Part shown: piece after piece, positions 9,601 through 61,141 of the stretch
Numbering within the stretch: position 1 is the stretch's first letter
How the letters are laid out: every line of letters starts with the position of its first letter
Assembly (NCBI GenBank): GCA_008632985.1
Contig: QPGO01000004.1
Coordinates: 868,001-932,000 of the forward strand
Direction: 5' to 3'
Length of the DNA stretch: 64,000 nt
From: Psammoneis japonica
Taxonomy: Eukaryota
Position numbers and translations under genes: made by a program
The notes under the pieces: model-generated
Databases searched by the model: none
Told to the model about the DNA's origin: nothing
The model's input: the letters and a program-made list of their open reading frames with translations, nothing else

Positions 9601-11466
9601 AAATGAAACAATTGCTCCACACCCGGAGACGGATCGATGCATGTGCAATGTCTGTGGGACAAAGCCAGTGACAAATCCATACAAGCGAACAACAAGATCA
9701 GTTGTTGGAAACGGCAACGATGGAGAAACTACAGCAGTGGCAAGCGTTCGACCGGCTGGTGGTTTTGTGGAAATTGTGGCGGCTCCTCAGGTGGGGGTTG
9801 AATCTATGTGTGTGAATGACACACCATTGCTTAACGTGGCTCACGTTCGAGTCGAGGAGCAGTTCAACATGTTGCAAGCCGTGAGAAGCGCCCTGTCACA
9901 ACAAGTTGCCATTGCATCGAGCATGAGCGCATCCCTCCCATCTGTTCCATGTCAAGTGCAACCGGCTCTTTCAAATCTTAATGATCTGATGCGGGATCAG
10001 AGGAAGCAAGACATTGATCCATGCTGTTGTCCTGTCTTCCTACAATGCAAGCTGCAGCAAAGCTGCAGTGTGACGGGGTGCCAACCAAGAGGTCGACCAG
10101 TGCATTCTATGGATTGCCCAAAGAGACAGCAGTCAAGGAGGTAGATGTCATCATTGCTGGGCACACTTCATGTGTTGCTGCTTTTGTTGACATTCTCGTG
10201 AGACAGCTGCCACTCGTAGAAGCGATCTAGCCTAGAGACGCACAGCAGTGTTTTCGAAACAGAGCTGAGTTTCCATGAGTTGTGAATTCACTGTTTTGTT
10301 TCTTATCCACCACACTTCCACAACTGTTGGTTGTTGTGTCCTCCACACACTTCATCACAATGCCACACTCAAGTGCCACCTTTCAAGGGCAGGTGAACCC
10401 TGTCGAAACGGAGATTCGGGTCTGCGGCGGTTGAAGGCACTCCCGTCCTTGGAAGCACCAGTCAACGCCTCACCGGGGGGCAACCCCTTGGCTCTCGTTG
10501 GCCGTCTCAATGTTCAGAGGTGGGGCCACATGAACATTGTTGCAGAAAAAAATTGCCGAGGCGCTGCTGCAGTCAGCAACCTCGGCAGTAGCCCGTGTTG
10601 TTCAAAGACGAGGGCAACCTCGTCTGCCGCTCACACACGGACTTTTCCAAAAGTGGTGGATTGTAGATTGCCAGCCAAAACAAACCACACCCACAACCAA
10701 CATGTGACATCCATTCCATCATATCCCGGTCAACAGCGCTTGTGGTGCCGCCGCACTCAGCAATTCCAATGAACCCTGAAAAGCCACCACTCCAACAACT
10801 TCTAAAGCCTCGTCAACGAAGGGTGAACACTCGGCTGAAGCCAAAAAGGCAACAATACAAAGCATCAGCATGAGAGACGCCATGAATGATCAATGCTTAA
10901 AGGAGGGCTCTTCAATCTGTCAAGAACGAACAGAAATTGCAACGCAAGAGCGGTGAGAGACGAGTTCAAAAAATGGAAAAAGTGCCAAGCATTTCTCATC
11001 CATTTTTCACGTTTTTCATACATCTCTTTTCGTACATTCATTCATCAGAGAGAGTTTTAATGCGTGCTTTGTTGTCACAACAGCATCACAAGTGACGGCG
11101 ACAATTTCGACTGCCGGCTCTTGCAGCTCTCATGGTCGATTTTTTGTGTGGTGTCGGAGGGAAACTCCTGAATTGCGTAGATTTCTACGTAAAATTCACA
11201 CTAGAGATACTTCAACACTGCAATGTCTCGATCTGTGTCACCACACCAAATTACTTCAACATGGGAGCACCCGGAGATCTGACACATCGGGTGGTGAAAC
11301 GGGAGAAAGAATTGACGATGGCTCTTCAAACCACTTCTGCCTTTTAGATCAAGCTCGCTGCCCTCGCAACCCCTTCCTCTCTCCTTCCTTTCTCTCCTCC
11401 TCCTCCTTCTTTCTCCTCTCCCCTCCCCCCCTCTCTTGGAGTCACTAACCCCCCCAAAATCCGTCT
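6693..11466 (+). repeat. Copy 1 of a ~4.77-kb head-to-tail tandem unit
   Basis: Starts tcgagggaggattaggaatgg and ends in a pyrimidine tract plus ggagtcact; colinear with 11467-16225. Confidence 0.97.
6953..10144 (+). pseudogene. DDE-transposase-like ORF, copy 1 (frameshifted, many Tyr->Cys/His changes)
   Basis: Same protein as copy 2, but split over several frames (7202-7495, 7483-8307, 7952-10144). Confidence 0.8.
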
Positions 11467-14400
11467 TCGAGGGAGGATTAGGAATGGCGCTACGAGAGCC
11501 AATCAGAATTCAGCATTTGGGATTTCTACTTATAGGGGGCCCTCGGAAAGTCGAGGACTTTCCGACTAATTAATTAACATTTTTTCGGAAAATCTGACGC
11601 AATCATTTATAGACGAGGAGGCTGAGACAACTCTCCAAAATCAGACACAAGAATCAAAATGATGCGGAGACCGAAATCATCTTCTTTTCGCGCCACGGAA
11701 AAACACAACAACACAGACTTCTGTCGCGATGAGAAAAATTCTCTCACAAAAAAAACCCACGAGAGAGAAAAGTACAATCTCTACTGGTGCTTCGATGATG
11801 ACCGACGTTGAAGAAGAATCAGCTCCACTAAAAGTGGCTACACAGCAGCAGCTGCATCCTTTCTTTATCAACATGGGCATTCAATCCCAGAAGCGCAAAG
11901 GCTCCATTAAAACGAGCAAAAGTCAAGCGCAGACACGTAAGAAGCGCACGCAACAGAGCGACTCAAGTGGGCGCAAGGTGCCAAGAGTAGACGACGGAAC
12001 AAAGAAATGCAAGAGGTGTGAGAATGGGCCTGCATGCCATCATGGTCACGATCCCACGTGCAAGTTTTCGAAACGATACATGCAAATCAATGTCACCGCG
12101 GCTACGAAAGATGCAGAGCGACGGGAAAAAGAGCTCCATGAAAAGAACAATACGATCCCAGCCGCCCCACAGAAAGGAGTTTCTACCATGGAAGACCATT
12201 TTGAAATTAAAGAATCAAACAGTCGAGCTCCATTGCCTCCTCCCGGTGATTCAAACTTTTGCAAGCCCGTGAATCTGGGAGCGTCCAGTTCTACCGTCGC
12301 AAGCAACCCGAATCTTTTTGATGCCGCAAGGAATACAAAATTCTCGGTTGAGACGTTGAAAAAAGAGATTCGAGCACGAGTGAAAAAGTATGAGAACTCG
12401 GAGGAGAAGACAAAGTGCCCGGCTGCAGTGAGTGCTCTTATCAGTTATCTGTTGGATTCTGTCAAGCCCAGATTTGATCAGGGCAGCAACACGCATCCTG
12501 TTGCTACAGCAAAAAGCACTGAGCTCAAAGAGATTCTGGAGGTCAAGGATGGTACCTTTCCGCCTGGTACAATATCGTTTCAAGTTCCCAAGGATGACTG
12601 CACTTCACCGCCTGATTATTACTACCACCAGCTGCAGGGTATGATAATATACATCGTTTGTTGGGAGCTGAATTGTCCTAACATCTACATTTCCTGTATT
12701 GACGGAGAGTGTGACGGGGAGATGATTCATGACCGTATGGACTTTACTCGATACGGTGGGGCGACGCCAATATATTGCATCAGCGGTAAGACTCATGTGG
12801 CAGTGTCAATGTGGTATGAGTGCAACAAATGCAAGACGCGATGCAAGGGCAACGACGGTCGACTGCTACACAAGTTACCAAAAAGCCTTCAATCATCGTA
12901 TCCAACTGAGCCAAAGTATGCCAGCGCAACCAACAAATGGCACCTTACAAGGGAAACCACAAGGCTATTTGAATCCTTTCTTGTCACGTACGCAAACGGC
13001 GATAAGTTTTCTCACACGCTACACCAGATGCGAGCTGCCTATTTCGAGGATCTCCAGAAAGAGTATTATCAACGAGCCAACGATGAATCAGGTGACTGGA
13101 TATCTTTCTACGAGTGGATTGGCAGCTACAGTCCATCAGGTTCTGCGATTCTTGATCTTTATGATGAATCTGGCGCATCGGAATTGACAGCTCTTGATAC
13201 GTCATCATACTCCAGATGTACAAGATTGATCCAGATGGTGGGAGCATCAATGAGCGTGGCTTCTGACCACACTTTTCAAATTCTCAAGAATTATACAAAG
13301 AAAGGTGGTGGAGCGGCGGCAGGACTATTTACTATGTGCAACGAAAAGGGACAGGTTGGAGTTGCTTGTCTGACACCGACGTTGGAAGCAAAAGATTTTG
13401 CTCACGCAGCCGAGCAGTTCGCGAGGCGAAAGAACGTGCGTCCAAAAATCCATTACAGCGACACTTGGCCGAATAAGTCATCGTTATGGAAGGTGTTATT
13501 TGGAGGTTACATAGTATGCCGTTTGGGTCTCTTTCACTGGATGCACCGTATTGTACAGACACTTCGAAAAGACCACGTCGACTATCATCAAGCAGTTCGG
13601 GACCTTCGAGCTACAGTTTCATACACCGAGTGGTCGGACCGCCAAGCAGTAATACAAGCCCTCAAGGATGGAACTCTCAATGGCAAAAAGCACACGGATG
13701 CAGAAATAGATGAGATCATCCATTCTTCCAGGTGGAAGCACTACTCAGAATACATGCGCATTTGGAGGCATCCGCTGGAAAAGAGAATCAGCTTGCTTGA
13801 CGATTGGCACGCCCGATATAAGTGTACGGCTTCTGATGGATCGCGACCCGCTGGGGGACGTCTTGATCCAAACAGTGGTTTGACACTCTTTACAAGTGAT
13901 ACAAAGGATGCCGTGGCAAATGGAAGAGAAACATCCAAGGGATTGGACGTTCCAGTGCCAAAGTCAGAGCAGTACTGGCCAGTGGCTCCATCGCTCCGTT
14001 CAAGAGCGAAGCTGGTGAAGTGGCGGACATTACTCGGGCCGGAGTCAAAGTTGGAAAAGGCTCATGATTCGCTGGCTCATTATGGAACTGTGGGATGCGA
14101 GATTCATTGATGGATTTGATCACTCTGGAAGGTTTGGTTCTCTACAACGCTACAATTGAAGAAAAGGAACGCGTTGAACGAATGAATCCAGAGACTCGAG
14201 CAAAGATTCCATACGATTTTCGGGGTGTGGTTACTCATCGGAACGTGCTCAATCTAATCGAAATCAACAAGCTAGCAACAAAGAAGGGGAAGAAAGCGCC
14301 CTATCCAGATGTAAGGGAACTCGAGGCGGACACCGGCGAGCGTTTTCTGTCCAAGTACCTGCGGGAGCAGAATGCTAGAAATGAAACAATTACTCCACAC

Positions 14401-16225
14401 CCGGAGACGGATCGATGTATGTGCAATATCTGTGGGACAAAGCCAGTGACAAATCCATACAAGCGAACAACAAGATCAGTTGTTGGAAACGGCAACGATG
14501 GAGAAACTACAGCAGTGGCAAGCGTTCGACCGGCTAGTGGTTTTGTGGAAATTGTGGCGGCTCCTCAGGTGGGGGTTGAATCTATGTGTGTGAATGACAC
14601 ACCATTACTTAACGCGGCTCACGTTCGAGTCGAGGAGCAGTTCAACATGTTGCAAGCCGTGAGAAGCGCCCTGTCACAACAAGTTGCCATTGCATCGAGC
14701 ATGAGCGCATCCCTCCCATCTGTTCCATATCAAGTGCAACCGGCTCTTTCAAATCTTAATGATCTGATACGGGATCAGAGGAAGCAAGACATTGATCCAT
14801 ACTGTTGTCCTGTCTTCCTACAATACAAGCTGCAGCAAAGCTACAGTGTGACGGGGTGCCGACCAAGAGGTCGACCAGCGCATTCTAAGGATTGCCCAAA
14901 GAGACAGCAGTCAAGGAGGTAGATGTTATCATTACTAGGCATACTTTATGTATTACTACTTTTGTTGACATTCTCGTGAGATAGCTACTACTCGTAGAAG
15001 CGATCTAGCCTAGAGACGCACAGTAGTGTTTTCGAAACAGAGCTGAGTTTCCATGAGTTACGAATTCACTATTTTATTTCTTATCTACCACACTTCTATA
15101 ACTATTGGTTGTTGTGTCCTCCACATACTTCATCACAATACCACACTCAAATACCACCTTTCAAGGGCAGGTGAACCCTATCGCAACGGAGATTCGGGTC
15201 TGCGGCGGTTGAAGGCACTCCCGTCCTTGGAAGCACCAGTCAACGCCTCACCGGGGGGCAACCCCTTGGCTCTCGTTGGCCGTCTCAATGTTCAGAGGTG
15301 GGGCCACATGAACATTATTGCAGAAAAAAAATTACCGAGGCGCTGCTGCAGTCAGCAACCTCGGCAGTAGCCCGTGTTATTTAAAGACGAGGGCAACCTC
15401 GTCTGCCGCTTATACACGGACTTTTCCAAAAGTGGTAGATTGTAGATTACCAGCCAAAACAAACCACACCCACAACCAACATGTGACATCCATTCCATCA
15501 TATCCCGGTCAACAGCGCTTGTGGTGCCGCCGCACTCAGCAATTCCAATGAACCCTGAAAAGCCACCACTCCAACAACTTCTAAAGCCTCGTCAACGAAG
15601 GGTGAACACTCGGCTGAAGCCAAAAAGGCAACAATACAAAGCATCAGCATGAGAGACGCCATGAATGATCAATGCTTAAAGGAGGGCTCTTCAATCTGTC
15701 AAGAACGAACAGAAATTGCAACGCAAGAGCGGTGAGAGACGAGTTCAAAAAATGGAAAAAGTACCAAGCATTTCTTATCCATTTTTCACGTTTTTCATAC
15801 ATCTCTTTTCGTATATTCATTCATCAGAGAGAGTTTTAATGCGTGCTTTGTTGTCACAACAGTATCACAAGTGACGGCGACAATTTCGACTACCGGCTCT
15901 TGCAGCTCTCATGGTCGATTTTTTGTGTGGTGTCGGAGGGAAACTCCTGAATTGCGTAGATTTCTACGTAAAATTCATACTAGAGATACTTCAACACTAC
16001 AATGTCTCGATCTGTGTCACCACACCAAATTACTTCAACATGGGAGCACCCGGAGATCTGACACATCGGGTGGTGAAACGGGAGAAAGAATTGACGATGG
16101 CTCTTCAAACCACTTCTGCCTTTTAGATCAAGCTCGCTGCCCTCGCAACCCCTTCCTCTCTCCTTCCTTTCTCTCCTCCTCCTCCTTCTTTCTCCTCTCC
16201 CCTCCCCCCCTCTCTTGGAGTCACT
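11467..16225 (+). repeat. Copy 2 of the ~4.77-kb tandem unit, ending at an assembly gap
   Basis: Starts tcgagggaggattaggaatgg at 11467; colinear with copy 1 up to the Ns at 16226. Confidence 0.97.
11729..14922 (+). CDS. ~1060-aa DDE-transposase-like protein (RNase H fold, Mutator-like motif order), copy 2, with one 1-bp frameshift near 14085
   Basis: Candidate triad SDHTF (D), YSDTWP (D), SKLEKAH (E), with LGLFHW between the second D and the E; CNEKGQV strand; Zn-binding clusters CKRC..H.H..C, CIDGEC..CNKC and a C-terminal CC..H..C. Confidence 0.7.
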
Positions 16226-45700: not shown

Positions 45701-46882
45701 CTACGCTGATGCAATAATGTAGATAGATTTACGCCCTGCATTCCATTGTTTCTCCTGTTGATGTTGTGCGTTGTCGTTTACAAGGCCAGTTTCCAATACC
45801 CGAATCTCGCTCCTTTGAAGACTTTCTGTCAAAATTGTACAATATTCCTCGAAAGGCTTTTCGGCCTCCAAGATACAAGACACGTCCATGCAGGATATCG
45901 GTGGCTTAACGTGAGTTGGCTTGCTCGATTGCTGAATGGTTGTGCACTCGGCTTTAAAGTGTCCAACTATTCCACACCTCCAGCAGGGAAAAGAGGAAAA
46001 AACTTCTTTGATTGCAGCAGTACGCTCATCGTGATCTAAAGGAAGCAAATCACAGGCAGTCACATAGTGCGATGAGCTATGGCATAAAGGACACGGGAGT
46101 TTACGACCACGTCCGATTGCCTGGTCTCTTCTCTCCATTGCCTCCAAGCGAATCTGTCGTTGGTCTGGCGTTTCGTAAAGGGGGATCTCAATGGTTCTAG
46201 AAATACTTTCCTTCTTACTTGTAACAGCGCGCGGTAGACAGCATGGCGCCAAGCACAGAAAAGGACATTTTGCTGGACCCAGTCCATTCACCAAGCCGAT
46301 ACAAGCAGGCGAAAGCATTTTACACAAGTGAATGCCAATCATTGCCAAGGGTGAAGGTAGCGAGTTGAATCGATCAAAAAGAATGTCCGATTCGTGTAAG
46401 TTGCATCGCTCCCAAGTTTCGATATGGGGTCGATGGTCAGCCTCGCATGATTCATTGGCGGCCATGATGTGACTCCAATCAATTGGTGCCTTGTCCAGCA
46501 TGACGATTCTACCGACTCGATTATCCCCTTGAAAAACGTACGAGCAAAGCATCGAGAAGACGCCTTTCCCACAACAAACATCAACCACTGTCACCGGTTC
46601 CACTTTAGCAGAGGACTTCTCCATCCATTCTAACAACGAGGTCAAGGCAACAATCGATTCTTCAACTTCGTGCAACAAGCTCGATTTGTTGAGCAAAGCT
46701 TGCCATCCGGTTTGTCCACCCCACTCGTGCCCCCATTTTCTCAATATCGATATGACATGCTGAGTCACGGCTTGACAGCGCTGGCTCTCATGCAGAGAAG
46801 ATGACAGTCCGTTCTCTTCCAAACGAGCAGCGGCCTTCCACACCCGCCAATACGACCCTGGTGTCTCAGTTTCGTCCACCAT
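45701..46882 (-). CDS. SAM-dependent methyltransferase-like protein with two CCHC knuckles
   Basis: VVDVCCGKG motif I, IGIHLC..LS, LAPCC; CPLC..H..C and CWRC..GH...C. Confidence 0.85.
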   Translation of the reverse strand: MVDETETPGSYWRVWKAAARLEENGLSSSLHESQRCQAVTQHVISILRKWGHEWGGQTGWQALLNKSSLLHEVEESIVALTSLLEWMEKSSAKVEPVTVVDVCCGKGVFSMLCSYVFQGDNRVGRIVMLDKAPIDWSHIMAANESCEADHRPHIETWERCNLHESDILFDRFNSLPSPLAMIGIHLCKMLSPACIGLVNGLGPAKCPFLCLAPCCLPRAVTSKKESISRTIEIPLYETPDQRQIRLEAMERRDQAIGRGRKLPCPLCHSSSHYVTACDLLPLDHDERTAAIKEVFSSFPCWRCGIVGHFKAECTTIQQSSKPTHVKPPISCMDVSCILEAEKPFEEYCTILTESLQRSEIRVLETGLVNDNAQHQQEKQWNAGRKSIYIIASA

Positions 46883-47858
46883 GGTTTTGGTTTGCAGTTT
46901 TTGCACCGCCTCGCACCTCTTTCACAGCCACAACATGGCGCTCAACGCGCGCTTTGAATTCCGCGCCCGTTTCACTTGGGACTGACGTTGCTGTGGTCCC
47001 GCCACCCTTTGCCATCTCTTTCCCCCGCATGCCTTTACCATCATCTCTCTCCGATCCGGCAGCTACTTCGATGCCTCCTGCTGCACCTCATGTCTCTCAT
47101 ACCTTCCGCTCTGCACAGGCACTCTTTACTCTCAGTAAAAAAATCCACAGATCAGATCATGATGAATGTGCGAATGATGCCAAAGAGATCACAATGCGTG
47201 GTCGTTGCAGGGGGTCTCTTTAGAATGGATGTCAGTGCCACGAAAAGATGCTGCACTGAAAGCATGTTGGTTCTGTGGTGTCTTTTCAGAGGGTGCATCA
47301 ACCCGGGTGTGCCATGCACTGAAGAAGGAGTGCAGGAGATGGAGTCACCAAAACATGAGTTGCTGCTCCAGCCCACGCACTTTGATGAACGGCTGTGTCT
47401 CACTGTCTTCATGAGCATCACATGAGGACATTGTGGTTGGCATCATTCATCAAAAATGTGCCATCATCTTAAATGAGCTGCTCTCAAGAAGGTGGGTGTC
47501 CACAGCTCTCTTGCTCTGCCCGCGTCCCTGCTGCCAAGAGACGAGGAGCTCGACAGCACATTTCTCACTTTTGTCAGCATCAACTTGATCACAGACCTCT
47601 TTGGCTTGACAGTGGTCTTTTGACAGTGCCCACTGATGTGGCCCAGCACAATTCACAGATGGGGCATCATCAACACTTTGAAACAAGCTTCAAAATCTTG
47701 TCCAGCCAACTCTTTTTTTGTCCTCTTCCACCTTCTTTGTGCGCAAAGCCTTCAAATGATGGCCAGCACACCTTTGCAACACCTGCTCAATGGCAAGGCA
47801 ACTGCAGAGCACAAAACAACAACGGACAATGAAGAAACTGCAAGTTCTTGAAGATGAG

Positions 47859-48664
47859 AAATGTCACAAAAACAATTGCTGCAGCACTGGCCAATGAGTG
47901 AAAGAGAAGCAACCACTTTGCAGTGCAAAAAGCACCATGTGAAAAAGAGAGCGGCTCTTCCCTTCACCAAACAAGAAAATCCCTCCCAACATTTTCCCCT
48001 TTCTGGCACCTGGCAGACCATCATCATGTGACAGCATGGCTTCAAACACACCCCCAACAGCTGTGCAGCCAGCATCAGAGGAGAACAAGTGCCTCTCCTT
48101 GGAGCTTGGAGAGTGTCCTTGCTGCCAAAATGTCACAAAAACAATTGCTGCAGCACTGGCCCATGAGTGAAAGAGAAGCAACCACTTTGCAGTGCAAAAA
48201 GCACCATGTGAAAAAGAGAGCGGCTCTTCCCTTCACCAAACAAGAAAATCCCTCCCAACATTTTCCCCTTTCTGGCACCTGGCAGACCATCATCATGTGG
48301 CAGCATGGCTTCAAACACACCCCCAACAGCTGTGCAGCCAGCATCAGAGGAGAACAAGTGCTTCTCCTTGGAGCTTGGAGAGTGTCCTTGCTGCCAAAAT
48401 GTCACAAAAACAATTGCTGCAGCACTGGCCAATGAGTGAAAGAGAAGCAACCACTTTGCAGTGCAAAAAGCACCATGTGAAAAAGAGAGCAGCTCTTCCC
48501 TTCACCAAACAAGAAAATCCCTCCCAACATTTTCCCCTTTCTGGCACCTGGCAGACCATCATCATGTGACAGCATGGCTTCAAACACACCCCCAACAGCT
48601 GTGCAGCCAGCATCAGAGGAGAACAAGTGCCTCTCCTTGGAGCTTGGAGAGTGTCCTTGCTGCC
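47859..48664. repeat. 269-bp tandem repeat, 3 near-identical copies
   Basis: aaatgtcacaaaaacaattgctgcagcactgg recurs at 47859, 48128 and 48397. Confidence 0.97.
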
Positions 48665-48768
48665 CCCCCCCCCCCAAGATCTGAAAGGAGCACAAAAAGT
48701 TGCCAGACAAAAAAAATGTTTTTCCTCTTGCTGACATTGCAAAAAGAAAAAGAGACCAAAAAGCAAGA

Positions 48769-49013
48769 TGACAGGATTTGAACAAGATTTTAGTTTGTCA
48801 CACACAATTGTGTGTGCTCTCAGTTCCACGCGCGTCGCGCGATGCAGTTTGCTTTCGAGCCACGCGGCTCACAAGAATGACAACAGCAGTGCTGATGTCA
48901 CGACACCAGTCTTTCGGCTCCTGCAATGGTCTCTGCATGGAGACTCATCTGCCATTTAGACAGCAGCAAGGAGTCATTGTTTTCTTCCACCCAGTCATCT
49001 TCGCTTGCTGTCA
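48769..49013 (+). repeat. 5' LTR (245 bp)
   Basis: Direct repeat of 54353-54599 with TG...CA ends. Confidence 0.95.
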
Positions 49014-50227
49014 GATCAACAGCCTTGCTCTTCATTGTCCACTGAGCATTCATCATCATCATCGAGAAATTTTTCGATGACGCGCACCGTTGGCGGTGGA
49101 AGCACACATCTACCTTCTTCACTGCTGGATGCTGGATTAAATCCACACATTTGGATTTATCCAATGCCTCCCATCGTTGGATGCATTTGTTCAACGTGTG
49201 TTTGTTTGACCAGGAATTCCCGAATTCTCAAGCATCTGAGATTCCAGATTCCTTGTGGCGGATCCTGCCAATCCATCCGCTCGTGTCCATGCGCACACGA
49301 TGCAAACCCTTGACTCTGGCCCTGCTCCACGCACACCAAGTCTGCCACCTTGCATCTGCGCTGGATTGCTGGTCTTCTACAGCCCTGCAAGGTCCACAAG
49401 GACAACTGTGAGAGGGACGCGTTCCAGCTCTGGGTGGGACCTTGCACTGCTGCACTGTGACATCAACAGTTTTTTGGATCACGTCGCATGTCGCGCACGC
49501 ACATTTCTGCGTGTTGCATTCTACGAAATTGTTTCATGCTCCCTGTTTTGTGAAGCCAAAGGCTTTCTATTTTCAACAGTTGTGAGAATGAAAATGTGCT
49601 GGGCATGTTCTTCAATGTCTGAAGAACACACCCGGGCAAACTGTCAATGATGTGCTGCAAGCATGGAGGAGGAGATGCATTCGTAAAATTGCCTCTTTTT
49701 CTGTTGGCAATCATTCATGTTTTCATTGCAGCAGGAATTTACTGCAGAGCTTGCACATGGAATTCTACGGGCCCAATGTCACACGGAGTCCCACCTGGGA
49801 CTGGAACCCATCGAGGAAGCAGTTCGTGATCACAGCCTGCGTTGGGGTGAGGGTGCATTTCCCATGTTTGTTCGTCCCTCCACAGCGCCAAATTTGGCCG
49901 GCCTGATCGGGTCACCCAACCGACATAAAATGAGAACGGTTCGGAGGTCTTGTCCACCTCTGGCCAGCTTGTCGGCAGGGGTTTTTAACCCGTTACTCCG
50001 CTCTCAGGCAACCCAAAGCATCGCCAGCTGCGGGTTCAGACGTGCCGGCACAACTCTACAGACCAGATGGGAAGCTTGGCACTTAACTACAAACAGGATG
50101 TCATGGCCCGGCGGCTTCTGACTCTTGAGACAGTTCAAGACATCAAGTCAAGATTCAAGTCAAGTTTCAAGTCATTTCAAGCTCACCCTCCGACTCTAGC
50201 TGGTTCCGACATTCACCCAGTTGCAAC

Positions 50228-53200
50228 ATGGTTCTCACCAGGCAACAACAAATCAATGGCCTCGAGCACATTCTAGGCACTGTTCTGAATCAAGCTGCAG
50301 ACAGTCCATTGCGCTCCGCTCTCAACATTGATGGAGCCGATTCGCATCAGGACCTTTTCACTTTTACACCAATGCAATTGGATGTCCTCGTGCACAACGA
50401 CGGCACCAGTCAAATGCCCTTGCCACATGGTTGCAAAGCACAGATGGCTGTGCTGACCAGCCTGCACATGGCAAAAGCGCGTGGCGGCGTGGATGTCAGC
50501 AATGACCCTCAACTGTTCATGCAAGAGGAGCTCACCAACTGTCATCTCAGTCCTGAGCATGTGGCATCCCTCTCCATGGGTGCAGCACCATCTGCTCCCA
50601 CCCCTGGCTTGTTGCCACCCAAACCACGTGATCCCGTGCGTGACTTTAAATGAGGCATCAAACGTGACCCGCTTGCCTTCGTGCTTCTCAAGTCTGACAA
50701 ACAGTGGCACACGTGGCACATCTCCATCATCGCACAGGCCCACTCCCAAGACGTCGCATGCATTCTTGATCCGACGTACAAGCCCTCTACAGCTGAGGAC
50801 AAGGCCCTGTTTGCTGAACAACAGAAGTGCATGTTCGCCGCATTTGAACGGATTTTGCAGAATGACAAAGGCAAGGCTCTTGTTTGTCAACATGTCGGCT
50901 CCTCTGATGCTCAAGCAGTGTGTCGTGATCTCTCCAAGCATGCCCTTGCTTCTGCTCATGCATCCCTGGAGTCCTTGACCCTTCTCACGTACCTCACCAC
51001 TGCTCACCTTGGTGATGGCACCTGGAAAGGATCTGCTCATGCCTTCATGCTCCACTGGCAGGACCAGCTCCACAAGTGTGAAGCTCTTGTCCCGGGTGCG
51101 GACCATTTCTCTGCTGGCCAGAAACATGTCATGCTTGAGAACACCGTTCATCCCATTGAGGAACTCCATTCAGTGAAGAATCAGGCCGATCAGTTCTGCA
51201 CGCAGAATGGAAAGGGGCTCTCTTACGAAGAGCACTGTGTGCTCCTGCTCTCTGCTGCAGCACAGTGCGACAGCACGTTCACCCCCAAGACGGCTCCTCG
51301 CGCCCCGCGCCGTGCCATCTACGAACATGACCTGGTCCCTGACGACCCTGATGACGATGCATTCTTTGACATCGACAGGGATGTTGACGTCATTCAAGCT
51401 CATGCTGCACAAACTCGCGGCAATTCCCTCACCAAGGAACAATGGCATCGCATCCCGCCGGACCATCAGCGCATTTGGGACACCTTGCCCCAATCCACTG
51501 AGGCCATCATTCTTGCCAACTGCCATGACTCGATGGCGGTCAACCTGCATGACCTCCGCCTTGGCAGTGATGGCGACGTCAACTTGTCCGCCAACACTCA
51601 CGATCTTGCGTCAGCCTCCACACAATCTGACGCCACAGCCAATGCAGCCGATGCCAACCCCATTCTGGCTCATCTCACCAGGCGCAAGCCTCTGCCACCC
51701 GGCGACTTGCAACATCTCCTGGCACCTGAATGGCCTCCTTCTGCCTGTTCTGGTGAGAAACCGCCCGGATCTGCACCTTCCGTCCACTTTGACGCGAAGC
51801 CCATTGACACTGACATTGAGATCAACGGCCACAAATGCCATCGCATCAACAACCACAATGTCGTCTGCTCTGCCTCAACCCACAAGTCAACTCACAAAGG
51901 TGCTCTCATGGATCATGGTGCAAACGGTGGCATCGCCGGTGATGATGTTCGTGTCATTGCCCGCGCTGGTCGCCAGGTTGACGTCCAAGGTGTCGACGAT
52001 CATCAACTGGTGGACATTCCCATTGTCGCTGCCGGTGGTGTCATCCACACACAACGCGGCCCTGCCATTGCCATTCTTCACCAGTGTGCCTGCACTGGAA
52101 AGGGGAAGATGATGCACTCTTGCAGCCAGCTCAACCGGTGCAAACACGATGTCAACGATTGGTCCATCAAGGTCCCCAATGGTCTGCAGCACATCACCAC
52201 CATTGATGGATGCGTCGTGACCATTTGCATTAAAGCCGGCCTCCTGCACATCGCCATGCGCCCACACACCGACGCCGAATGGGACACTCTGCCGCATGTC
52301 ATTCTCACTGGTGATGACACATGGGATCCATCTGTCCTTGACCACCAGTTCATGGATGATGAGACGTGGTGTGATGCCATGTCTGACCTCCAAGATGACC
52401 CAACTGCCAACCTCTTTGATGAGTTTGGCAACTGTCATCACCACCATGTTGTCAACAATGCCATGCTTGCACACTCCGTCCTTGATGATCACCTGCTCCC
52501 GACATCTGATTTCTTCTACGAATGCCATGAGCGCGAACTCAATCCCAAGGATCCTGACTTTGAGTCCCTCTGCCCCTGCTTTGGCTTTCTCCTGAAGGAC
52601 ACTGTCCGCCGCACTTTTGATTGCACGACGCAGTGCGCCCGCATGCCAGCCAGCATGCACCTGAAAAAGGCGTGCAAATCACCCAACCCAGCTCTCAATG
52701 TCCACCGACGCAATGAACCCGTTGCCACCAACACGGTCTGCTCCAACACCCCTGCCATTGACTCTGGTTGCACCAGCGCCCAGCTCTTTGTTGGCACGGA
52801 ATCTCTTGTCACTGACGTGCATGGCACCAAAACTGACAAAGAATTTGTCAACACCCTCGAAGACAACATTCTCGCAATCGTGGTGCCCGTCCAAGCTCAT
52901 CAGCGACCGTGCTCAGGTTGGGATCAGCAACAAGGTTCTTGGCATCCTTCGTGCCCTCTTCATCTCCAGTTGGCAAAGCGAGCCTCACCACCAGCATCAG
53001 AATTTTGCTGAACACCGCTGCCAAACTGTGAAGACCATGGCCAACACTGTCATGGATCACTTCGGGTCCCCGGCTTGCACCTGGCTGCTCGCCCTGATGT
53101 GCGTGTGTTTTGTGCTCAACCACACGGCATCCGCCAAGCTCCACTGGCATGCCCCCACTGAGGTGCTGTCCGGCTCTGCTCCCGACATCAGCCCGCTCCT

Positions 53201-54300
53201 CCGCTTTCAATGGTGGGAACCCATTTTCTGCCACCTGGATGATTCCGACTGGCCGCCCAAATCCCGTGAATTACGTGGTCGCTTCGTTGGCATCGCCGAA
53301 CACGTTGGTCACCAAATGATGTTTAAAATTCTTTCTGTCAACACTCAGAAGATTCTCTGCCATTCCAACGTGCGCTCCACCCATGATCCGTCTGCTCCAA
53401 ACCTGTGTCTTGATCCTCCTGACAAGAAATCTGCTGACCCTGTCATTAAATCCCGCCACGACTCCGAGAATTCGCCAGACTCACCAGATGGGGAGGCGAT
53501 CAGGATGCCCAAAATGCCGGTCTTTGACCCCGAGGATGTCATGGGATGCACCTTCCTCATGAAGCCACAAGAGGATGGACAACACCTCAGAGCCCGCATC
53601 GTCAAAGCCGTTGAGGACCATGACTGGAAAATCAGAGGCAATCCCGAACTGGTCAAGTTCATTTGCTCCATCAACAATGACGAATGCGAGGAAGTCCCAG
53701 CCTGCAATGACATCATGCACCACATTGAGCAAGAAGACGAGGACCCAACTCTCTGGAAGTTCCAACACATCGCATCGCATGAAGGACCATTGCGACCCCA
53801 TGATCTCTCTTGGAAAGGCTCAAGCTGCAACGTCATGCTCGAATGGGAGAATGGGGAGATCACGTCCGAACCCCTTGCCATCATTGCCAAGGATGACCCC
53901 ATCACCTGTGCCATCTACGCGCGTGAGCACAGCCTTCTAGAAACTGAAGGATGGAGATGTTTTTGCAAGACAGCACTTCGTCAGAAGAAGCCATTCCACA
54001 TGGCCAACCAAGCCAAGTTGTGCTCCTTTTGTGCTGCACCACGATGCAAGTGCGGGTGTGAAGTGCCACGGGACTACAAGCATGCCATGGCCCTTGATGA
54101 GCACAATGGCAACCACAAGTGGGGAGACGCAACGGACCTCGAGATGACTCAGCTTGATGAGTGCGAAGTCTTCCACGACTGCAGACACCACAAGGATTCC
54201 AGTGCTCCATTGGGACACAAGAAGATCCAGGTGCATCTCGTCTGTGATGTCAAACATGACGGACAGCACAAAGCAAGGCTTGTTGCCGATGGACACCTCA
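50228..54300 (+). pseudogene. Copia gag-pol pseudogene (RT truncated, no RNase H)
   Basis: Protease-like ALMDHGANGG, integrase-like LISDRAQ and QNFAEHRCQTVK, EWENGEITSEPL, RT start VHLVCDVKHDGQHKARLVADGHLT; stop at 50651 and a frameshift near 52875. Confidence 0.9.
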
Positions 54301-54352
54301 CAAAATCCGACTTCAAATCTGTCGCTGTTGACCCCTCAAGCAAACTGGGGAG

Positions 54353-54599
54353 TGACAGGATTTGAACAAGATTTTAGTTTGTCACACATGATCACATGTG
54401 CTCTCAGTTCCACACGCATCGCGCGATGCAGTTTGCTTTTGAGCCACACGGCTCACAAGAATGACAACAGCAGTGCCGACATCACAACACCAGTCTTTCG
54501 GCTCCTGTGACAGTCTCTGCGCATGGAGACTCATCTGCCATTTAGACAGCAGCAAGGAGTCATCATTTTCTTCCACCCAGTCATCTTCACTTGCTGTCA
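54353..54599 (+). repeat. 3' LTR (247 bp)
   Basis: Direct repeat of 48769-49013, preceded by the PPT and followed by the TSD. Confidence 0.95.
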
Positions 54600-57075
54600 C
54601 AAGATGCGCTGCAGCAGCATTGTTTTTGCTGCAGTTTCTGGCGGGGCAGATGTGCTTCATCCTGGGCATCTCACCACAACTTGTTTTTTCACCACTGGCA
54701 GCTGCCCGTCCTGTGCTGAGCAGTGTGCTTTTCTGACACAAGTGACAGCCAGCCAACAGGGTTTTGCAGCATCTTTTGGCTGGGTCAAGTCATGGGGCAA
54801 GTTTTTCTCATGTGGGCACATTGTGCATCAGCCTCTGCATGTTGAACACTGCCCATTCTTGTGCAAATTAAGCAGATGTGCATGACAAAGGGACAAATCA
54901 TCTTTTGCATTGCTGCTTTTTCATCCAGTGATTGCCCCATTGCTTGTTTGCATTGCACCTTGAGCACATGTGGCACTCTCAATGCTGGATGCTGGTTTCA
55001 CTTGCAGTTGAAACATTGTCTCCAATGGCGCCAGCTCCAAGCAGTTTGAGCCTTTCTAAGAATTTGAGCTGAGCAACCAACTGGGTGTGCATTGAGACCA
55101 TTTTCCCCTCTTGCACTCCACACACAAAAATCATGCACATTGCAACAAAAGCTCACCATGACAATGACGAGCAATTCATTGGCAATGCCTTCCCATGATG
55201 TGGTGCCCATTGGTGTGCTCAAGAATGCAAACGCCGCCCACTCCTGTCTCCTGAACATTTGACACCAGCCATCTCTGGTCATGTGCTTGGCAAGTGGCCT
55301 CACAGTTGGCAGAGTGAGGTTGGGTTAAAACATTTTTCTTCTCAATGCAAAAACAACAAACACTGTTGTTGTTGCTGGCCCACCCTGCTGGTGGCGGTGG
55401 CAAATCACTTGTTTGTGATGTCATCAGCAATTGCCTTTGTGGCACAAGCCTTGCTGTTGTTGCAACAAAGCAACAACAACAACAACCACAGTGCAGCCCT
55501 GTTGCTGTGTCATTTTGCTTGAACAAAATTTCCAAAAATCCTGCTCAAATGAAAGGGTTTTTTTGACATGATGCATTGCCTCCCAGCACTGGTTCCCTCA
55601 TGGGGCAGCTTTTTTTTGTTTCCCTTGCCTTGGTTGATCATTTCTGATGATGAGCTGTTGCAGCTCCTTTTTTTCATTTTATGCCAGGGTTTGCTGTGGC
55701 TGATTGCTCTTGACAAACCCATCTTTTTGTCAGCTTTGCTCTGCCCTTTTGTTCTGAATTCCACAAGCTGCGCCACAGCTCTTTTGCCCAGCTGCCCTCA
55801 GTCTCTTTGCCAACACTCTCCCACTCATGAGACTGCAACTTGTGCCAGCTGCAGACTGTCACACCCGTGAAGGCATTGGCTGGAATCAAAATTTTCCATC
55901 CTTCTGTTGGCCACCTCTGCTGGACGTGGCGCATCATCATGTCGTCTTCCTCATTGCTTGCAGCAACTGACTGTTTAGATTGGTTTCAAAACACACTGCC
56001 AGTTTGCTTGTTGCTGCTGTTGATTCTTCCAAGCACATTGTCTGCTCTTGATGGTGGACAAAAATCAAGACATTTCATGTGAGCCTTTTGACTTGGGGGG
56101 ATTCTTGCAGCAAAATGCACCACTCCATTGATGTCATTTCCCTTGCTGGAATGCCAACAAAATTGCAAAAGGCACATTGTGCAGCCACCTTTGTTCATGG
56201 AGGTCCCTCTTTCTCTGACATGATGTTTGATCCCAACTTCTCTTTGCTGCAAGCAGGGCTTCCAACATTGGTGTAAATTCTCTGGACACCATGGCAGTTC
56301 TCAGGCTGGACTTTCCACCTTCCAACAGGGTTGTGACAGCAATGGTGACTCCTCCTTTGACAGCCATTTCCTGTCAAGTCACACATGTGTTTTGCTGGTG
56401 ACATTCATTTGCCTGTTTTTTTTTTGAATTTGGATCTCACATCTCATGGAGGCAAAGGCATCACTGGAAGTGACAGAATTCAAAATGCACAACTCAGCAC
56501 AAGTCCTTTGCTTTCTTTGTTCACACATTGCTCTTGCCAGGTGTTCTTCAAGGTTTTGCTTTCACACCCTGCCTTTGTCCCAACTGTGCCAAGCCATGCA
56601 GTGTGCTGCCTTGCAATGATTGCACCTGCTGCAAGTGCCAACAGCAACCCCACCTGTTGCTGCACCCAGCTTTGAGCTGTGTTGGTGTGGTGGCTTTGAT
56701 TCTGCCACACATGTTGATGTTTTTGTGCACAGCAATTGCCCTGTCAAGACTGCCCAGTTTTTTGCTGAAGCCATTGATGACATCAGGTCCTTTCTGCATG
56801 CTCCTGCTTTGCTTTTTTCACAGAAATGTGGCAAAGGTCAAGCCAAAGGAGGCTGTGAACCAAACAGCTCCAGCTTTTGTTCCAGCAGGATTCTGGTTTT
56901 TGAGACAGCCAAGGACAAATCCAAGAGAGCAGAGCTGCGTTGTCACTTGGGCTCATCATGCTGGGTGCCACTGGCAACTTTGCAAAATGGATCATGACAG
57001 ATTTCAGGAACCTGAGTGAACCAATTGACCAAGCAGTTTCTGCTCTGGCACAAAGTCAAGCACACTGATGGCTTC

Positions 57076-57690
57076 TGTCAGGAACCCATCATCATTTTGT
57101 CCTTCTGTGGTGCAAAACAATGGCAGCTTGCAAGCAGCTGATGCTGCCTCTCTTCTTGTTCCCCAGCTCTCAATCTTGTCAGCAGCAGTGGTGGGCTCTT
57201 CTTGTTTTTCATTTCCTCCTCACCTGCTTGAAACACGTTTTTTGATCCAAGCACATTGACAGCCATCTGACAGATTTTGCCAACTCAACATTTCCCCACT
57301 CAGTGCCATCATGCCACCCTCTGCCTCCACATCATCTCATTCGGCATTTCATTTGGCAGCTTTTTTGGAGTCATGACAGTTTTGGAAACCCACACAAACA
57401 CCAAATCTGATGCATCAAAGGATTTTGTCAGGAGCTCATTGTCACCTTGTCTTTTTGCACTGCAAAACAATGGCAGCTTCAGCTGCTGGCACTGCTGCCA
57501 TTCTCTTCTCATTTCCCAACTCTCAATCTCATCAGTGGTGTGTGCTCTTGTTTTGCCTTTTCTCCTTGGTGCCCACTTGTGATTTTGCCAACTCAACATT
57601 TTCCCACTTTGGCGCCAATCTCCAGTGCACCATTGTGCCACTCTCTGTGTCTCTGCATCACCTTCTTTGGCAGCTTCTTTGGCTCTGTTG
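57076..57690. repeat. Old, diverged ~310-350-bp tandem duplication
   Basis: tgcaaaacaatggcagctt at 57111 and 57461; gattttgccaactcaacattt at 57273 and 57581. Confidence 0.8.
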
Positions 57691-60600
57691 TCATGCAGTG
57701 CCCCAACAATCTTGGGGTCCTTTGCAGTCATTGGCAGCCCCAAAGAGCCATCACTTGAATCCATCCATTTCAGTGCTGCCACTCACGCCCTTGATCCCTG
57801 CACACATTGACTGCAGCAACCACTCCAGTCTCATCACACTCTGTTGACTTAACATCATGCATCTGCCATGGAAAACAGCATCGCCTCTTCATCCTCTGAC
57901 CTGCAATCTCTTCTTCCCATCTTGCTGCATTTTTAGACTTTGCCTGTGCACTCAACTCTGTGGTCAGATTGGGGAGCTCATTCCCAAACATGCCATCCTT
58001 TGTGTTCTTGTGGTTTGGGATTTCTGCTGTGGCACAAGTGGTGTGCAGCAACTCTGCAACCAATCATTTCTCTGGGGTCTGACTGGGCACAGATGTTCTT
58101 TTCCTCAAGTTGTCTGCTGCACCTGGTTTGGGATCACAGTCTTGCAGGTTGATGCACTTCCACTCAAACATTTTGCCACTGCCAAGCCTTGCACATCATC
58201 AGTTGGAAGTTGAATGAGTGCACTTTGCCATCATCAATGCAATGTTCCAGGATGAGTCTTCTGGCACCACTCAACAGTGTTTTGGAAGTTCATGTTGTGG
58301 CAGTGTGTCATTGCATGAACTCAATCAAGCTGTTTGCTTGGCACCCAACATGCCATTGGGTTCTCATGCCTGTCACTTCCCTTGTGCAGTGGGTGTGAAC
58401 AATTTGAGTGCATCATCTGTGGGACCTGAAAACAGGGGGGTTTCCATGCAATTGTTCAATTGTGCCCATGCCAACACTGAAGAGCAGTGTGTTTTTCCCA
58501 CAGCTGGAAATGTCAAATTGAGTTGGCTGTCCAACCATTCAACAATGAGAGTCACATTGCCATGATGAGCCAGCCGCTGAAAAAAGCAACAGAAAATTGG
58601 CAGCTTTGTGAACTCAATTGTCATGCAAAGCACTTCTTTGATTGTCAATGCAGCACATTCATTTGCCCACTTTGTGCACTTGTGGAAGGCAAATGAGAAT
58701 GCTTGCTCAGCTGTGACAATTGTTCCATCTGCTGAGCTCATTGTTGGTTCTCAGATGCACCCAAAACATTGCAATCAGGTGATGCTCAGCTTCTGTGAAA
58801 AGCATGACAGACATGCCAGCTGCCTGTTGACATGGCATTTCATTGCGCCAGTGCCACAAACTCAATTCCACCTCAGAGCCACCACTGCCCAAAAAGGCTG
58901 CAGTGGTGCAGCAGCGCAATGTGCACAGCACAGTGCAAAACTGGCCTCCCAAAAATGGAAGCCACCATCCCATGCAGATCTCCTGTGGTGCGCTGATGGC
59001 TTGACCCATGGCTTCTTCCTTGCTCACACAACCACCACATGTCAGTTGATGAAGCTGTGGGTGGATGATTGAGTGAGAGTCTAAAATGCCTTCACTTGCA
59101 TTTGGGACAGGCAATTGCCAACAGCCCTTGCCTGTGAAACCCTTTAGATGACAACACCACTTTGACAGTGTTGAGCAGCTGGAGCAATCTGAGCATGAGC
59201 AACCTCCTTGCCAGAGACACACAAAGATGTGCCCCACCAAATGCCAGTGGCATGTCATTGAAAGCTGTTGCAACACTTGGAAAATGCACTTGCAACTGGT
59301 TTTGAGCAAGCAAAAACTCCCAGACCTGCACCTGCTGCACAGATTGCACTCCACAGCCAGGATGAAAGGAAAAGATGCCACCACTGAGGGGGGTGCAGCG
59401 GCAATGCACACTTGCCATTGCATGGCAAGCACAACAGCTGATGTGTGCTGAGCAACCCACACACCTGTCAAATCAGTGCCTTCCAAAAAATTGCTGGAGC
59501 TGTGAAAGTCAAAGATCGAAAACAACAATTTGTGCCAAATGAGCCCCCCATCAGCTTGCAAGCAGGCACACCAATTGGTGATGAAGTGCATTGGTCTGTG
59601 CTTTGAAGGGCTTGGAGAAAGTGCCACAAGACACACAAGTCAAACATCATCAGATGAACATGTGGCACGGCGTTGTCTTGGTGACCTTTTTGCGTGCACA
59701 TTGGAGTTTAAGAGACTCAACCACCTCAAAAGCAACAAGAAAGATGACAGCGGGGGTTTGCCAGGGACAATGGAAAGACAAACACAAAATGTGGGAAAGC
59801 TTGACTGGGAATTGCAAGAAATGAAAACTCCAAAGTTCCCAGATGCCTTCAATGTCTGGTTGGTGTCCATCATGACAGTGGCACAAAATTCAAAAATGAG
59901 CGACACTCTTAAAGGAGTGTGTTTGTTGGGTGGTGCTGGCTTGTCCCACACAACTGGAAAGCTTGTGTCAAGACACTGAGTTGAAAGACTCATGCAGCGC
60001 TGCAGTGTTGCAGCATGCCCAAGACTGGGAAAAAGAGCGAGGGTTGCATCAGCAGAGAATGAGAACCTGTGAAACAAATCAACCCCAAACAGGCAGGAGA
60101 CATTGCTTTCTGGGGTTGTTCCAACAGATCTCGTGGGTCAAGAGAGTGCTCAACACTGCACAGCAGCACTGGATGCTCTCTTGAAAGCATTGCGCCATTT
60201 CCATGATGTCAGCCTGAGCAAGATCGGGAGATGCCAATGGCAGGAAGCATCCAAAACAACCCCAAACTGCCTTCTTGCATTGACCCTCCACAAAAGCACA
60301 GAATGACTTGAACACCACATCACCCCTGCTGATGGTGAGTGACAGAATCCTTTCTGCAGACATGTTGTCGTGCTTGCGATGTTTGAGCTGTGTGCCAACC
60401 TTGTTGCACTTTTGATTGACAAATGTCGCGCACATGACACAAAGAAGAATGCAGGCGATGATGTCCATTCCTTGAAATCTCTTTGCAGAGTGCACAGGCA
60501 TCTTGGCAACTCACCTCAGGATTCATGTCCTGAGCTTGTTTGATGACATCCAAGTGCAAGTGCTCAGCTGCTTGTGGGTCATTCAAGGACTTGCACACAC

Positions 60601-60843: not shown

Positions 60844-61141
60844 CAGGGTTAACTAATTGCAAAGTTTTCTGCAGCAATCAGATTGCAGTCAGTCGATTGC
60901 ATCGCTGTGGTCTGACGAACAGATTGCAATCGCCCCGCCGGCCAGGCGCGCCCCCCGCGCAGGGGTTTTAGCTATAAAAAGAGCTCGAATTTCGATTGCA
61001 ATCGATTGCAACAGTCGATTTAGATTGTGATTGCGACCTCGGCTCTTTCCCGACAATCAGGTCATTGCAATCGAGTTTGCAACAGCGATTGCAATCAAAG
61101 TGAGGCTGATTGCAATCGATCCTAGCAATTAGTTAACACTG
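60844..61141. mobile_element. hAT-type MITE (298 bp)
   Basis: 17-bp TIRs CAGGGTTAACTAATTGC / GCAATTAGTTAACACTG (1 mismatch), 8-bp TSD CCCAAATT, and many internal GATTGC(AATC) repeats. Confidence 0.92.

What the first reader, a model, noticed from the sequence alone, without database searches (positions are those of the whole stretch)
50228..54300. Conserved Copia tyrosines systematically recoded to Cys while long frames stay open
Seen: HQCACTGKG, AEHRCQTVK, KGSSCNVMLEW, RCKCGCEVPRDY and VHLVCDVKHDGQHKARL. From my recollection of diatom Copia proteins these correspond to HQYAY, AERRYQ, GSSYNV, KYKYGY and VYDVKHDGRHKARL. So Y->C (TAY->TGY) occurs together with R->H/Q (CpG decay). This fixes the polarity as TA->TG/CA. 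The process inactivates by missense and erases TAA/TAG stops, generating many spurious Cys/His/Gln-rich ORFs that could contaminate annotations or seed de novo genes.
Basis: partly seen in the sequence, partly recalled or inferred. Interest (0 to 1): 0.7.

Follow-up and report, generated by a model that had tools for sequence, protein, structure and literature searches.

The report
TA-erasing hypermutation of diatom retrotransposons
A dead jumping gene in a diatom has had nearly every TA step rewritten to TG or CA after it inserted, turning tyrosines into cysteines or histidines; this is the mark of a targeted DNA-mutating process, and the one earlier description found is from an unrelated alga.

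Summary
Confirmed. The window holds an internally deleted Ty1/copia element (48,769-54,599) in a diatom. Of 28 tyrosines conserved in relatives, 15 are Cys, 3 His, 6 still Tyr. The coding stretch has 16 TA against 211 expected.

The change is post-insertion and on both DNA strands: 95 of 107 sites are TG in some copies and CA in others, and the two LTRs differ the same way. Cys exceeds His mainly because A in TAY is hit about 2.5-3x faster than in TAR, in two families. In a young sister family TA decays about 17x faster than CpG, and 31 of 43 copies have no substitution-made stop.

The rate depends on location: some transposon nests are largely spared, and one of two adjacent 4.8-kb duplicates took 81 of 85 TA losses, unlike RIP. 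The spectrum matches a 2026 Bigelowiella preprint. A TadA/ADAT-type DNA adenine deaminase is my best guess (about 60%); no enzyme is identified. The scan found this process before on other pieces of this genome.

The parts
48769..49013 (+). 5' LTR (TGAC...GTCA), preceded by target-site copy CAAGA
50228..52870 (+). gag-protease-start of integrase region (domain names inferred from position), Tyr recoded to Cys/His; one TGA at 50,651
   Evidence: matches residues 1-902 of relative P0002; substitutions; stop
52896..54302 (+). integrase region and first residues of RT in a second frame, Tyr recoded; ends at an internal deletion of about 1.44 kb
   Evidence: 59-60% identity to P0001/P0002; other copies carry about 1.44 kb more here; RVT_2 lies at 1338-1554 of P0002
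54304..54352 (+). 3' untranslated end with a purine-rich tract next to the LTR
54353..54599 (+). 3' LTR followed by target-site copy CAAGA; differs from the 5' LTR only at TG/CA/CG steps (14 events, no transversion)
47250..48768 (.). older TA- and CG-erased DNA left of the element, with a 269-bp unit in 3 tandem copies (47,859-48,664)
54600..60500 (.). older TA- and CG-erased DNA right of the element (TA O/E 0.00-0.14 per kb); the 57.9-59.4 kb part has only 66-76% identical distant matches among 3 candidates scored; origin unknown
6693..11446 (+). first copy of a 4.76-kb tandem duplicate; 81 TA steps changed to TG/CA relative to the second copy, all between 7,920 and 11,219
11467..16225 (+). 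second copy of the duplicate, almost untouched (4 TA losses)
45701..46921 (-). host methyltransferase/zinc-knuckle gene, unmutated control; the relatives that carry a species name are diatoms

Best explanation
After a retrotransposon or other redundant DNA lands in a susceptible chromosomal domain, a host process converts A to G in TpA on either strand, fastest in T-A-Y, until almost only Y-TA-R sites remain. SHOWN: the direction, both strands, post-insertion timing, independence between copies, the motif, a rate far above CpG decay, and dependence on location. INFERRED: the chemistry is deamination of adenine to hypoxanthine, read as G at replication, by a TadA/ADAT-fold zinc deaminase reaching transiently single-stranded DNA in silenced chromatin. 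Also INFERRED: the effect is defence, since Tyr>Cys/His and other missense changes cripple the polyprotein without making stops. Slower CpG decay then finishes the erosion, giving blocks with neither TA nor CG.
For: Direction: 18 of 28 conserved Tyr are Cys/His; no conserved His, Gln, Trp or Cys became Arg. TA asymmetry of TA-rich copy L022 against 17 depleted copies: 1783 vs 64. Independence: both TG and CA at 95 of 107 sites and at 129 of 144 in a second family; no runs of one direction along a copy (mean z 0.02). Timing: 4 sites that are TA in other copies' LTRs are TG in one window LTR and CA in the other; exact 5-bp target duplications at 13 of 17 elements. Rate in the young family, change per site: T[A] 0.303, C[G] 0.026, A[A] 0.007, C[A] 0.009, G[A] 0.005, transversions about 0.001. 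Motif: rate relative to TAA is C 2.9, T 2.7, G 1.1 and C 2.5, T 2.4, G 1.0; 25 of 49 surviving TA in the block are YTAR against 294 of 1670 outside. TadA-derived adenine base editors are most efficient at TAY (PMC10879117, passage). The B. natans preprint reports the same spectrum de novo and proposes an ADAT2-like enzyme.
Against: Sequence cannot tell A>G in TAY from T>C in RTA. No enzyme is pinned: the genome has five MafB19-deam/TadA-like matches and A_deamin matches at two loci, which ordinary tRNA and nucleotide deaminases could explain. Engineered TadA also edits CA and GA well (CAT, GAC, GAT are listed as promoted motifs), whereas here CA and GA are 35-60x below TA. TA loss and CpG loss correlate across copies (rho 0.58-0.77), so a link to methylation or simply to age is not excluded. 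A coding-strand excess remains in the young family (1.26, bootstrap 1.10-1.41) but not in the older one (0.96). Copies share ancestry, so counts are not fully independent. A defence benefit was not tested.
Confidence: 0.6

Rival explanations
1. Same targeting, but the lesion is on thymine: T in R-T-A is oxidised or otherwise modified (for example to 5-hydroxymethyl- or 5-formyluracil) in silenced DNA and pairs with G.
For: Gives the identical double-strand signature. Thymine-modifying TET/JBP enzymes exist in some algae (recalled, not checked).
Against: No Tet_JBP match in this genome (the control rang nowhere, so this is weak). I recall no T-modifying enzyme with an RTA motif, whereas TAY matches a measured deaminase motif.
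Confidence: 0.15
2. An error-prone polymerase (pol eta type) miscopies TA during repair patches triggered in methylated repeats.
For: TA and CpG loss correlate across copies. Diatom TEs are CG-methylated by DNMT5 (PMC9998398, passages).
Against: Pol eta favours both AA and TA (recalled; seen as a listing only), but AA changes are about 40x rarer than TA. Transversions stay at background. TA loss occurs almost without CpG loss in the tandem duplicate (85 TA vs 6 CG events) and in P0298 (16 of 23 Tyr recoded, 0 of 34 Arg decayed).
Confidence: 0.1
3. A homology-sensing 'reverse RIP': pairing between repeats triggers mutation of both partners.
For: Targets are mostly repeats and the neighbouring gene is spared.
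Against: One of two adjacent 97.8% identical copies took 81 TA losses and the other 4 (they could be alleles assembled in tandem). Family members in repeat-dense nests largely escape although dozens of close copies exist. The B. natans target is single-copy.
Confidence: 0.1
4. A-to-I editing of the element's RNA before reverse transcription.
For: Cys outnumbers His 15:3; mild coding-strand excess of 1.26 in the young family; two A_deamin loci.
Against: T>C at TA on the coding strand is nearly as common (703 CA vs 863 TG). The two LTRs of one insertion differ TG/CA. Flanking DNA and a tandem duplicate with no sign of retroelement origin are hit too.
Confidence: 0.03
5. Artefact or inheritance: assembly error, an ancestral Cys-rich family, or CpG decay alone.
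For: All element families have some TA under-representation; TA O/E was 0.49-0.98 in 56 of 57 environmental loci.
Against: Contigs of a public run match. Relatives have Tyr. Least-changed same-genome copies keep Tyr. CpG decay cannot remove TA.
Confidence: 0.01

Closest known systems
TpA hypermutation of integrated viral DNA in Bigelowiella natans (Mettrop et al., bioRxiv 10.64898/2026.01.13.699255; read parts 1-3 of 5: abstract, introduction, results, discussion, conclusion; supplements not available)
   Same: TpA>TpG/CpA on both strands, confined to foreign or silent domains, far above background; TpA-poor sequences there are also enriched for RT and DDE domains; enzyme unknown, ADAT2-like proposed.
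   Different: Here a diatom (the word 'diatom' does not occur in that text), LTR retrotransposons mutated to near saturation, a measured TAY flanking rule, a rate relative to CpG decay, and spared transposon nests. There the rate was measured de novo; here it is inferred from copies.
Repeat-induced point mutation (RIP) of ascomycetes (features from abstracts and from recall)
   Same: Repeat-associated, dinucleotide-specific, dense transitions that inactivate transposons.
   Different: Opposite direction (RIP is C>T and makes TpA and stops; this destroys TpA and makes no stops). RIP mutates both partners; here one of two adjacent duplicates was spared.
TadA-derived adenine base editors (PMC10879117, passages)
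   Same: A>G in DNA with highest efficiency at TAY.
   Different: Engineered and guide-targeted, and tolerant of CA and GA; the natural process here is almost TA-exclusive and its enzyme is unidentified.
Diatom Ty1/copia (CoDi) retrotransposons (PMC2806351, passages) and DNMT5 CG methylation of diatom TEs (PMC9998398, passages)
   Same: LTRs with TG/CA ends, target-site duplication, copia-type RT in relatives; CpG decay as expected of methylated TEs.
   Different: A word search found no 'TpA' in the DNMT5 paper and no 'RIP' in the CoDi paper ('TpA' was not searched there). The CoDi subgroup was not determined.

Membership tests
Ty1/copia LTR retrotransposon | Two direct LTRs with TG...CA ends and a target-site duplication | tested here: met
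   245/247-bp LTRs, TGAC...GTCA, CAAGA on both sides
Ty1/copia LTR retrotransposon | Copia-type reverse transcriptase (RVT_2) downstream of integrase | tested here: inconclusive
   Mostly deleted in this copy; no Pfam hit on window frames. Relatives at up to 60% identity carry RVT_2 and other genomic copies match P0002 to its end. Integrase is known only from a source name of a relative.
Ty1/copia LTR retrotransposon | Primer-binding site and placement in a named CoDi group | not tested
   No tree with named CoDi elements was built
B. natans-type TpA hypermutation | Transitions restricted to TpA, giving TpG or CpA on either strand | tested here: met
B. natans-type TpA hypermutation | Confined to foreign or silent domains, host genes spared | tested here: met
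   Sharp block 47.2-60.5 kb; host gene keeps Tyr and Arg. Silence itself was not measured.
B. natans-type TpA hypermutation | About 1000-fold over the background rate per generation | tested here: inconclusive
   Relative only: about 300x transversions and 35-60x other adenines per site, uncorrected for saturation
B. natans-type TpA hypermutation | Active in some lines and not others; same enzyme | not testable with these tools
   Needs mutation-accumulation lines; no enzyme is established in either organism
RIP | C:G to T:A transitions that raise TpA | tested here: not met
   TpA is lost; T[G]>T[A] change is at background, 0.003 per site
RIP | Both members of a duplication are mutated | tested here: not met
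   81 vs 4 TA losses in adjacent duplicates
RIP | Premeiotic timing and dependence on RID/DIM-2 | not testable with these tools
   No crosses or mutants
TadA/ADAT-type deaminase footprint | T before and pyrimidine after the edited A | tested here: met
   Two families; motif in PMC10879117
TadA/ADAT-type deaminase footprint | Lesion is hypoxanthine made by such an enzyme | not testable with these tools
   Candidate genes exist but nothing links them to the process

The most novel reading that the evidence does not exclude
Diatoms and chlorarachniophytes share a natural DNA adenine-deaminase genome-defence system, a native 'adenine base editor'. It is steered by chromatin state and not by homology, acts soon after an element inserts, skips certain dense transposon nests (possibly centromere-like domains), and is scattered among other algae, as the Tyr-recoded public proteins P0298 and P0311 suggest.
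Probability: 0.4. Interest if true: 0.92.

Novelty: new member of a known kind. Interest (0 to 1): 0.7.

Why it matters
A natural process that drives A:T to G:C in chromosomal repeats runs against the usual mutation bias, and my searches found it described only in one 2026 preprint on a chlorarachniophyte. A diatom case with a reproducible flanking motif, a rate relative to CpG decay, and hit versus spared domains gives a fingerprint for finding the enzyme and a test of how it is aimed. If it is a deaminase, it would be a natural DNA adenine editor of biotechnological interest. In practice it makes young elements look old, hides them from Pfam (no hit on the window frames), and leaves long Tyr-poor frames that can be called as hypothetical proteins.

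Tried and rejected
CA>CG or TG>CG as a second arm of the process: suggested by the symmetric CA/CG differences between copies; rejected because conserved His, Gln, Trp and Cys did not become Arg and C[A] change is 0.009 in the young family.

Coding-strand bias as the main cause of Cys over His: the ratio falls from 1.31 to 0.96 in the older family and from 1.80 to 1.2-1.4 in the young one once context is modelled.

Flank TA content as a predictor of how far a young copy is mutated: none (rho 0.06).

An early burst after insertion: regression intercept 0.78, but site heterogeneity and noise in CpG counts could give the same; left open.

DNA-level test in other organisms: the scan for P0298's DNA found nothing. 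The 57 loci found with P0305 showed no TA-specific excess in any pair at >=80% identity (read by eye); one locus, L150, had TA O/E 0.31 but no close partner. Cluster look-ups gave no organism names.

Identity of the old flanking block: 1 weak Pfam hit below its cut-off among 13 frames. Tet_JBP search blank with a blank control. No RNA holder listed. No tRNA in the window.

Literature: searches found no report of TpA erasure in diatoms (listings and abstract starts only; subscription journals are mostly missing).

Full report
WHAT IS THERE. The window lies in a 91-Mb genome. The host gene at 45.7-46.9 kb has relatives whose species names are diatoms, so I call the organism a diatom. From about 47.2 to 60.5 kb TA is almost absent: O/E 0.00-0.20 per kb, against 0.3-0.95 in the 500-bp bins at 44-46.5 and 61-64 kb. 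Inside this block sits a Ty1/copia element with LTRs at 48,769-49,013 and 54,353-54,599 and the target duplication CAAGA. Its coding part matches residues 1-1379 of an 1859-aa public relative. A search with 1.4 kb of it returned 42 matches from 40 scored of 424 candidates, the best other copy at 94%.

CHECK OF THE OBSERVATION. Against 120 public relatives, 28 conserved Tyr read 15 Cys, 3 His, 3 Phe, 1 Trp and 6 Tyr in the window, and 18 of 36 conserved Arg read His, Cys or Gln. Relatives do not have Cys at the quoted motifs. The finding's interval has 16 TA against 211 expected and 189 CG against 294. The host gene keeps 4 of 4 Tyr and 11 of 11 Arg. Contigs of a public run agree with the assembly over the TA-free block, though that run may be the source sample.

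WHEN AND ON WHICH STRAND. I took 20 of the listed copies as 10-kb loci. Three keep 18-23 TA per kb, one 16, and the other 16 and the window 2-6. At sites that are TA in at least two TA-rich copies, 95 of the 107 sites with six or more changed copies show both TG and CA. Direction agrees between pairs of copies at 0.63 against 0.57 expected from 4-mer bias alone, so most events are independent and some are shared or more finely context-driven. The window's two LTRs were identical at insertion (established for LTR elements). They differ by 7 TG/CA double differences and 7 CG-type changes and nothing else; 4 of the 7 doubles are TA in other copies' LTRs, 1 is CG and 2 are unresolved. The mutation therefore happened in chromosomal DNA after insertion, on either strand.

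WHY CYS AND NOT HIS. A competing-risk fit gives a coding-strand excess of 1.31 without context and 0.96 once the base 3' of the A is included; C and T there raise the rate 2.9x and 2.7x over A, and G 1.1x. Tyr codons are TAY, the preferred context on the coding strand. An independent family gives 2.5x, 2.4x and 1.0x and keeps a strand excess of 1.26 (site bootstrap 1.10-1.41). That residue is unexplained; exposure of the non-template strand during transcription is one possibility. I obtained the TAY result before reading earlier scan notes that report the same.

HOW FAST. A search with a recoded public protein exposed a young sister family. I fetched 40 of its 56 listed copies and added three already held; the selection may favour recoded copies. 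In 39 copies 17-51% of TA sites survive while 84-97% of CG sites do. Change per site is 0.303 at T[A], 0.026 at C[G], 0.005-0.009 at other adenines and about 0.001 for transversions; the median hazard ratio TA/CG is 17. Tyr is 0.4-1.7% in these copies against 3.9% in the least-changed one, and Cys 2.8-3.9% against 1.2%. 31 of 43 copies have no substitution-made in-frame stop; frameshifts were not counted. Older DNA ends with neither TA nor CG.

WHERE. The rate depends on location. The TA-rich copies lie in stretches of C196, C403 and C356 that are dense in Gypsy, Copia and LINE-like pieces and keep TA O/E mostly 0.3-1.0. They are as diverged by transversions as depleted copies and have lost a similar share of CG: L022 against 17 depleted copies shows TA asymmetry 1783:64 but CG asymmetry 1937:1334. 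L055, a young-family copy there, has lost more CG than most of its family, yet its hazard ratio is about 2. In the window itself, a 4.76-kb tandem duplicate at 97.8% identity differs by 93 transitions: 81 are TA losses in the first copy, 4 in the second, 6 are CG changes. One neighbour hit and one spared argues against RIP-like pairing and for a local chromatin state; the two copies could be alleles assembled in tandem. Against full independence from methylation or age, TA and CG loss correlate across copies.

OTHER ORGANISMS. Of 236 public relatives scored (4 of 240 had too few sites), 5 have at least 20% of conserved Tyr as Cys/His; the median is 0. P0298 (16 of 23, no Arg decay) and P0311 (10 of 15) match this genome at only 59% and 54% among the candidates scored (56 of 1244 and 78 of 967), so they probably come from other organisms. 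I could not get P0298's DNA and did not seek P0311's. The 57 environmental loci found with P0305 show no TA-specific excess. The process is patchy, not general to this element clade.

ORF CLAIM. In the old block TAA+TAG number 22 against 302 TGA. Stops run at 2.75 per 100 codons against 3.51 in window 1-47,000, and ORFs of 100 aa or more are 3.9 per kb against 1.85 in a TA-normal model (that model includes genes). The six-frame translation has 0.0% Tyr and 6.7% Cys. The effect is real but about twofold; nothing here bears on de novo genes.

MECHANISM. Shown: direction, timing, both strands, motif, relative rate, location dependence. Inferred: adenine deamination by a TadA/ADAT-fold enzyme in silenced chromatin (about 60%). 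The TAY motif is that of TadA-derived editors (PMC10879117, passage), but those tolerate other 5' bases much better. The genome has five MafB19-deam matches and A_deamin matches at two loci. My reading of them as TadA-like, ADAT2-like, dCMP-deaminase-like (two) and a deaminase in frame with a 2OG-Fe(II) oxygenase rests on Pfam hits and recall; none is linked to the process. Thymine modification, an error-prone polymerase, reverse RIP and RNA editing are weighed under rivals.

WHAT IS KNOWN. Mettrop et al. (bioRxiv 10.64898/2026.01.13.699255; parts 1-3 of 5 read, word search, supplements not available) measured TpA>TpG/CpA hypermutation de novo in two viral inserts of Bigelowiella natans, about 1000x background. 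I saw no flanking rule in the parts read, and the text has no mention of diatoms; their mutation table could bear on the motif. An earlier scan note led me to this paper. Searches found no diatom report. Many earlier notes of this scan describe the same process on other pieces of this genome; they are not independent evidence. The spared nests and the rate relative to CpG across a 43-copy family did not appear in the notes I was shown.

VERDICT. Real, well supported, and a new member of a kind described once before. Interest 0.7.

Noticed in passing
window 6,693-11,446 and 11,467-16,225: Tandem 4.76-kb duplicate with a long frame of no Pfam family. The first copy lost 81 TA steps, the second 4, and the first 1.2 kb of the hit copy is untouched. 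Could be two alleles.
   Followed up: partly
G000 C196 30-110 kb, C403, C356 (L021, L022, L037, L050-L061): Dense nests of Gypsy, Copia and LINE-like pieces that largely escape TA erasure, with TA-erased DNA at one end of the stretch fetched from each contig; nature unknown, possibly centromere-like.
   Followed up: partly
L044:319-1791 (-), G000 C79: One open frame joins a zinc deaminase domain (HAE, PCVMC) to a 2OG-Fe(II) oxygenase; probably metabolic, not tested.
   Followed up: no
L046-L049, G000 C40 and C79: Two separate A_deamin (ADAT1/ADAR-type) loci; one ADAT1 would be the usual number (recalled). Domain architecture not examined.
   Followed up: no
window 47,859-48,664: Three 269-bp tandem units, 99-100% identical and TA-free: duplicated after the erasure.
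   Followed up: no
L027, beside the LTRs: The 5-bp target duplication reads CAAAT on one side and TAAAT on the other: a TA change just outside the element.
   Followed up: no
P0298, P0311, P0305, P0061: Public proteins, two of them named 'hypothetical protein', carry the same Tyr>Cys/His recoding; P0298 shows it with no Arg (CpG) decay.
   Followed up: partly
window 60,900-61,100: A short GATTGCAATC-rich stretch right at the edge of the TA-erased block, where TA and CG return to normal; high contig depth in this bin suggests a repeat.
   Followed up: no
young family, L064-L103: Further context effects recur in both families: A just 5' of the T raises the rate, T two bases 5' lowers it, and A two bases 3' lowers it.
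   Followed up: partly
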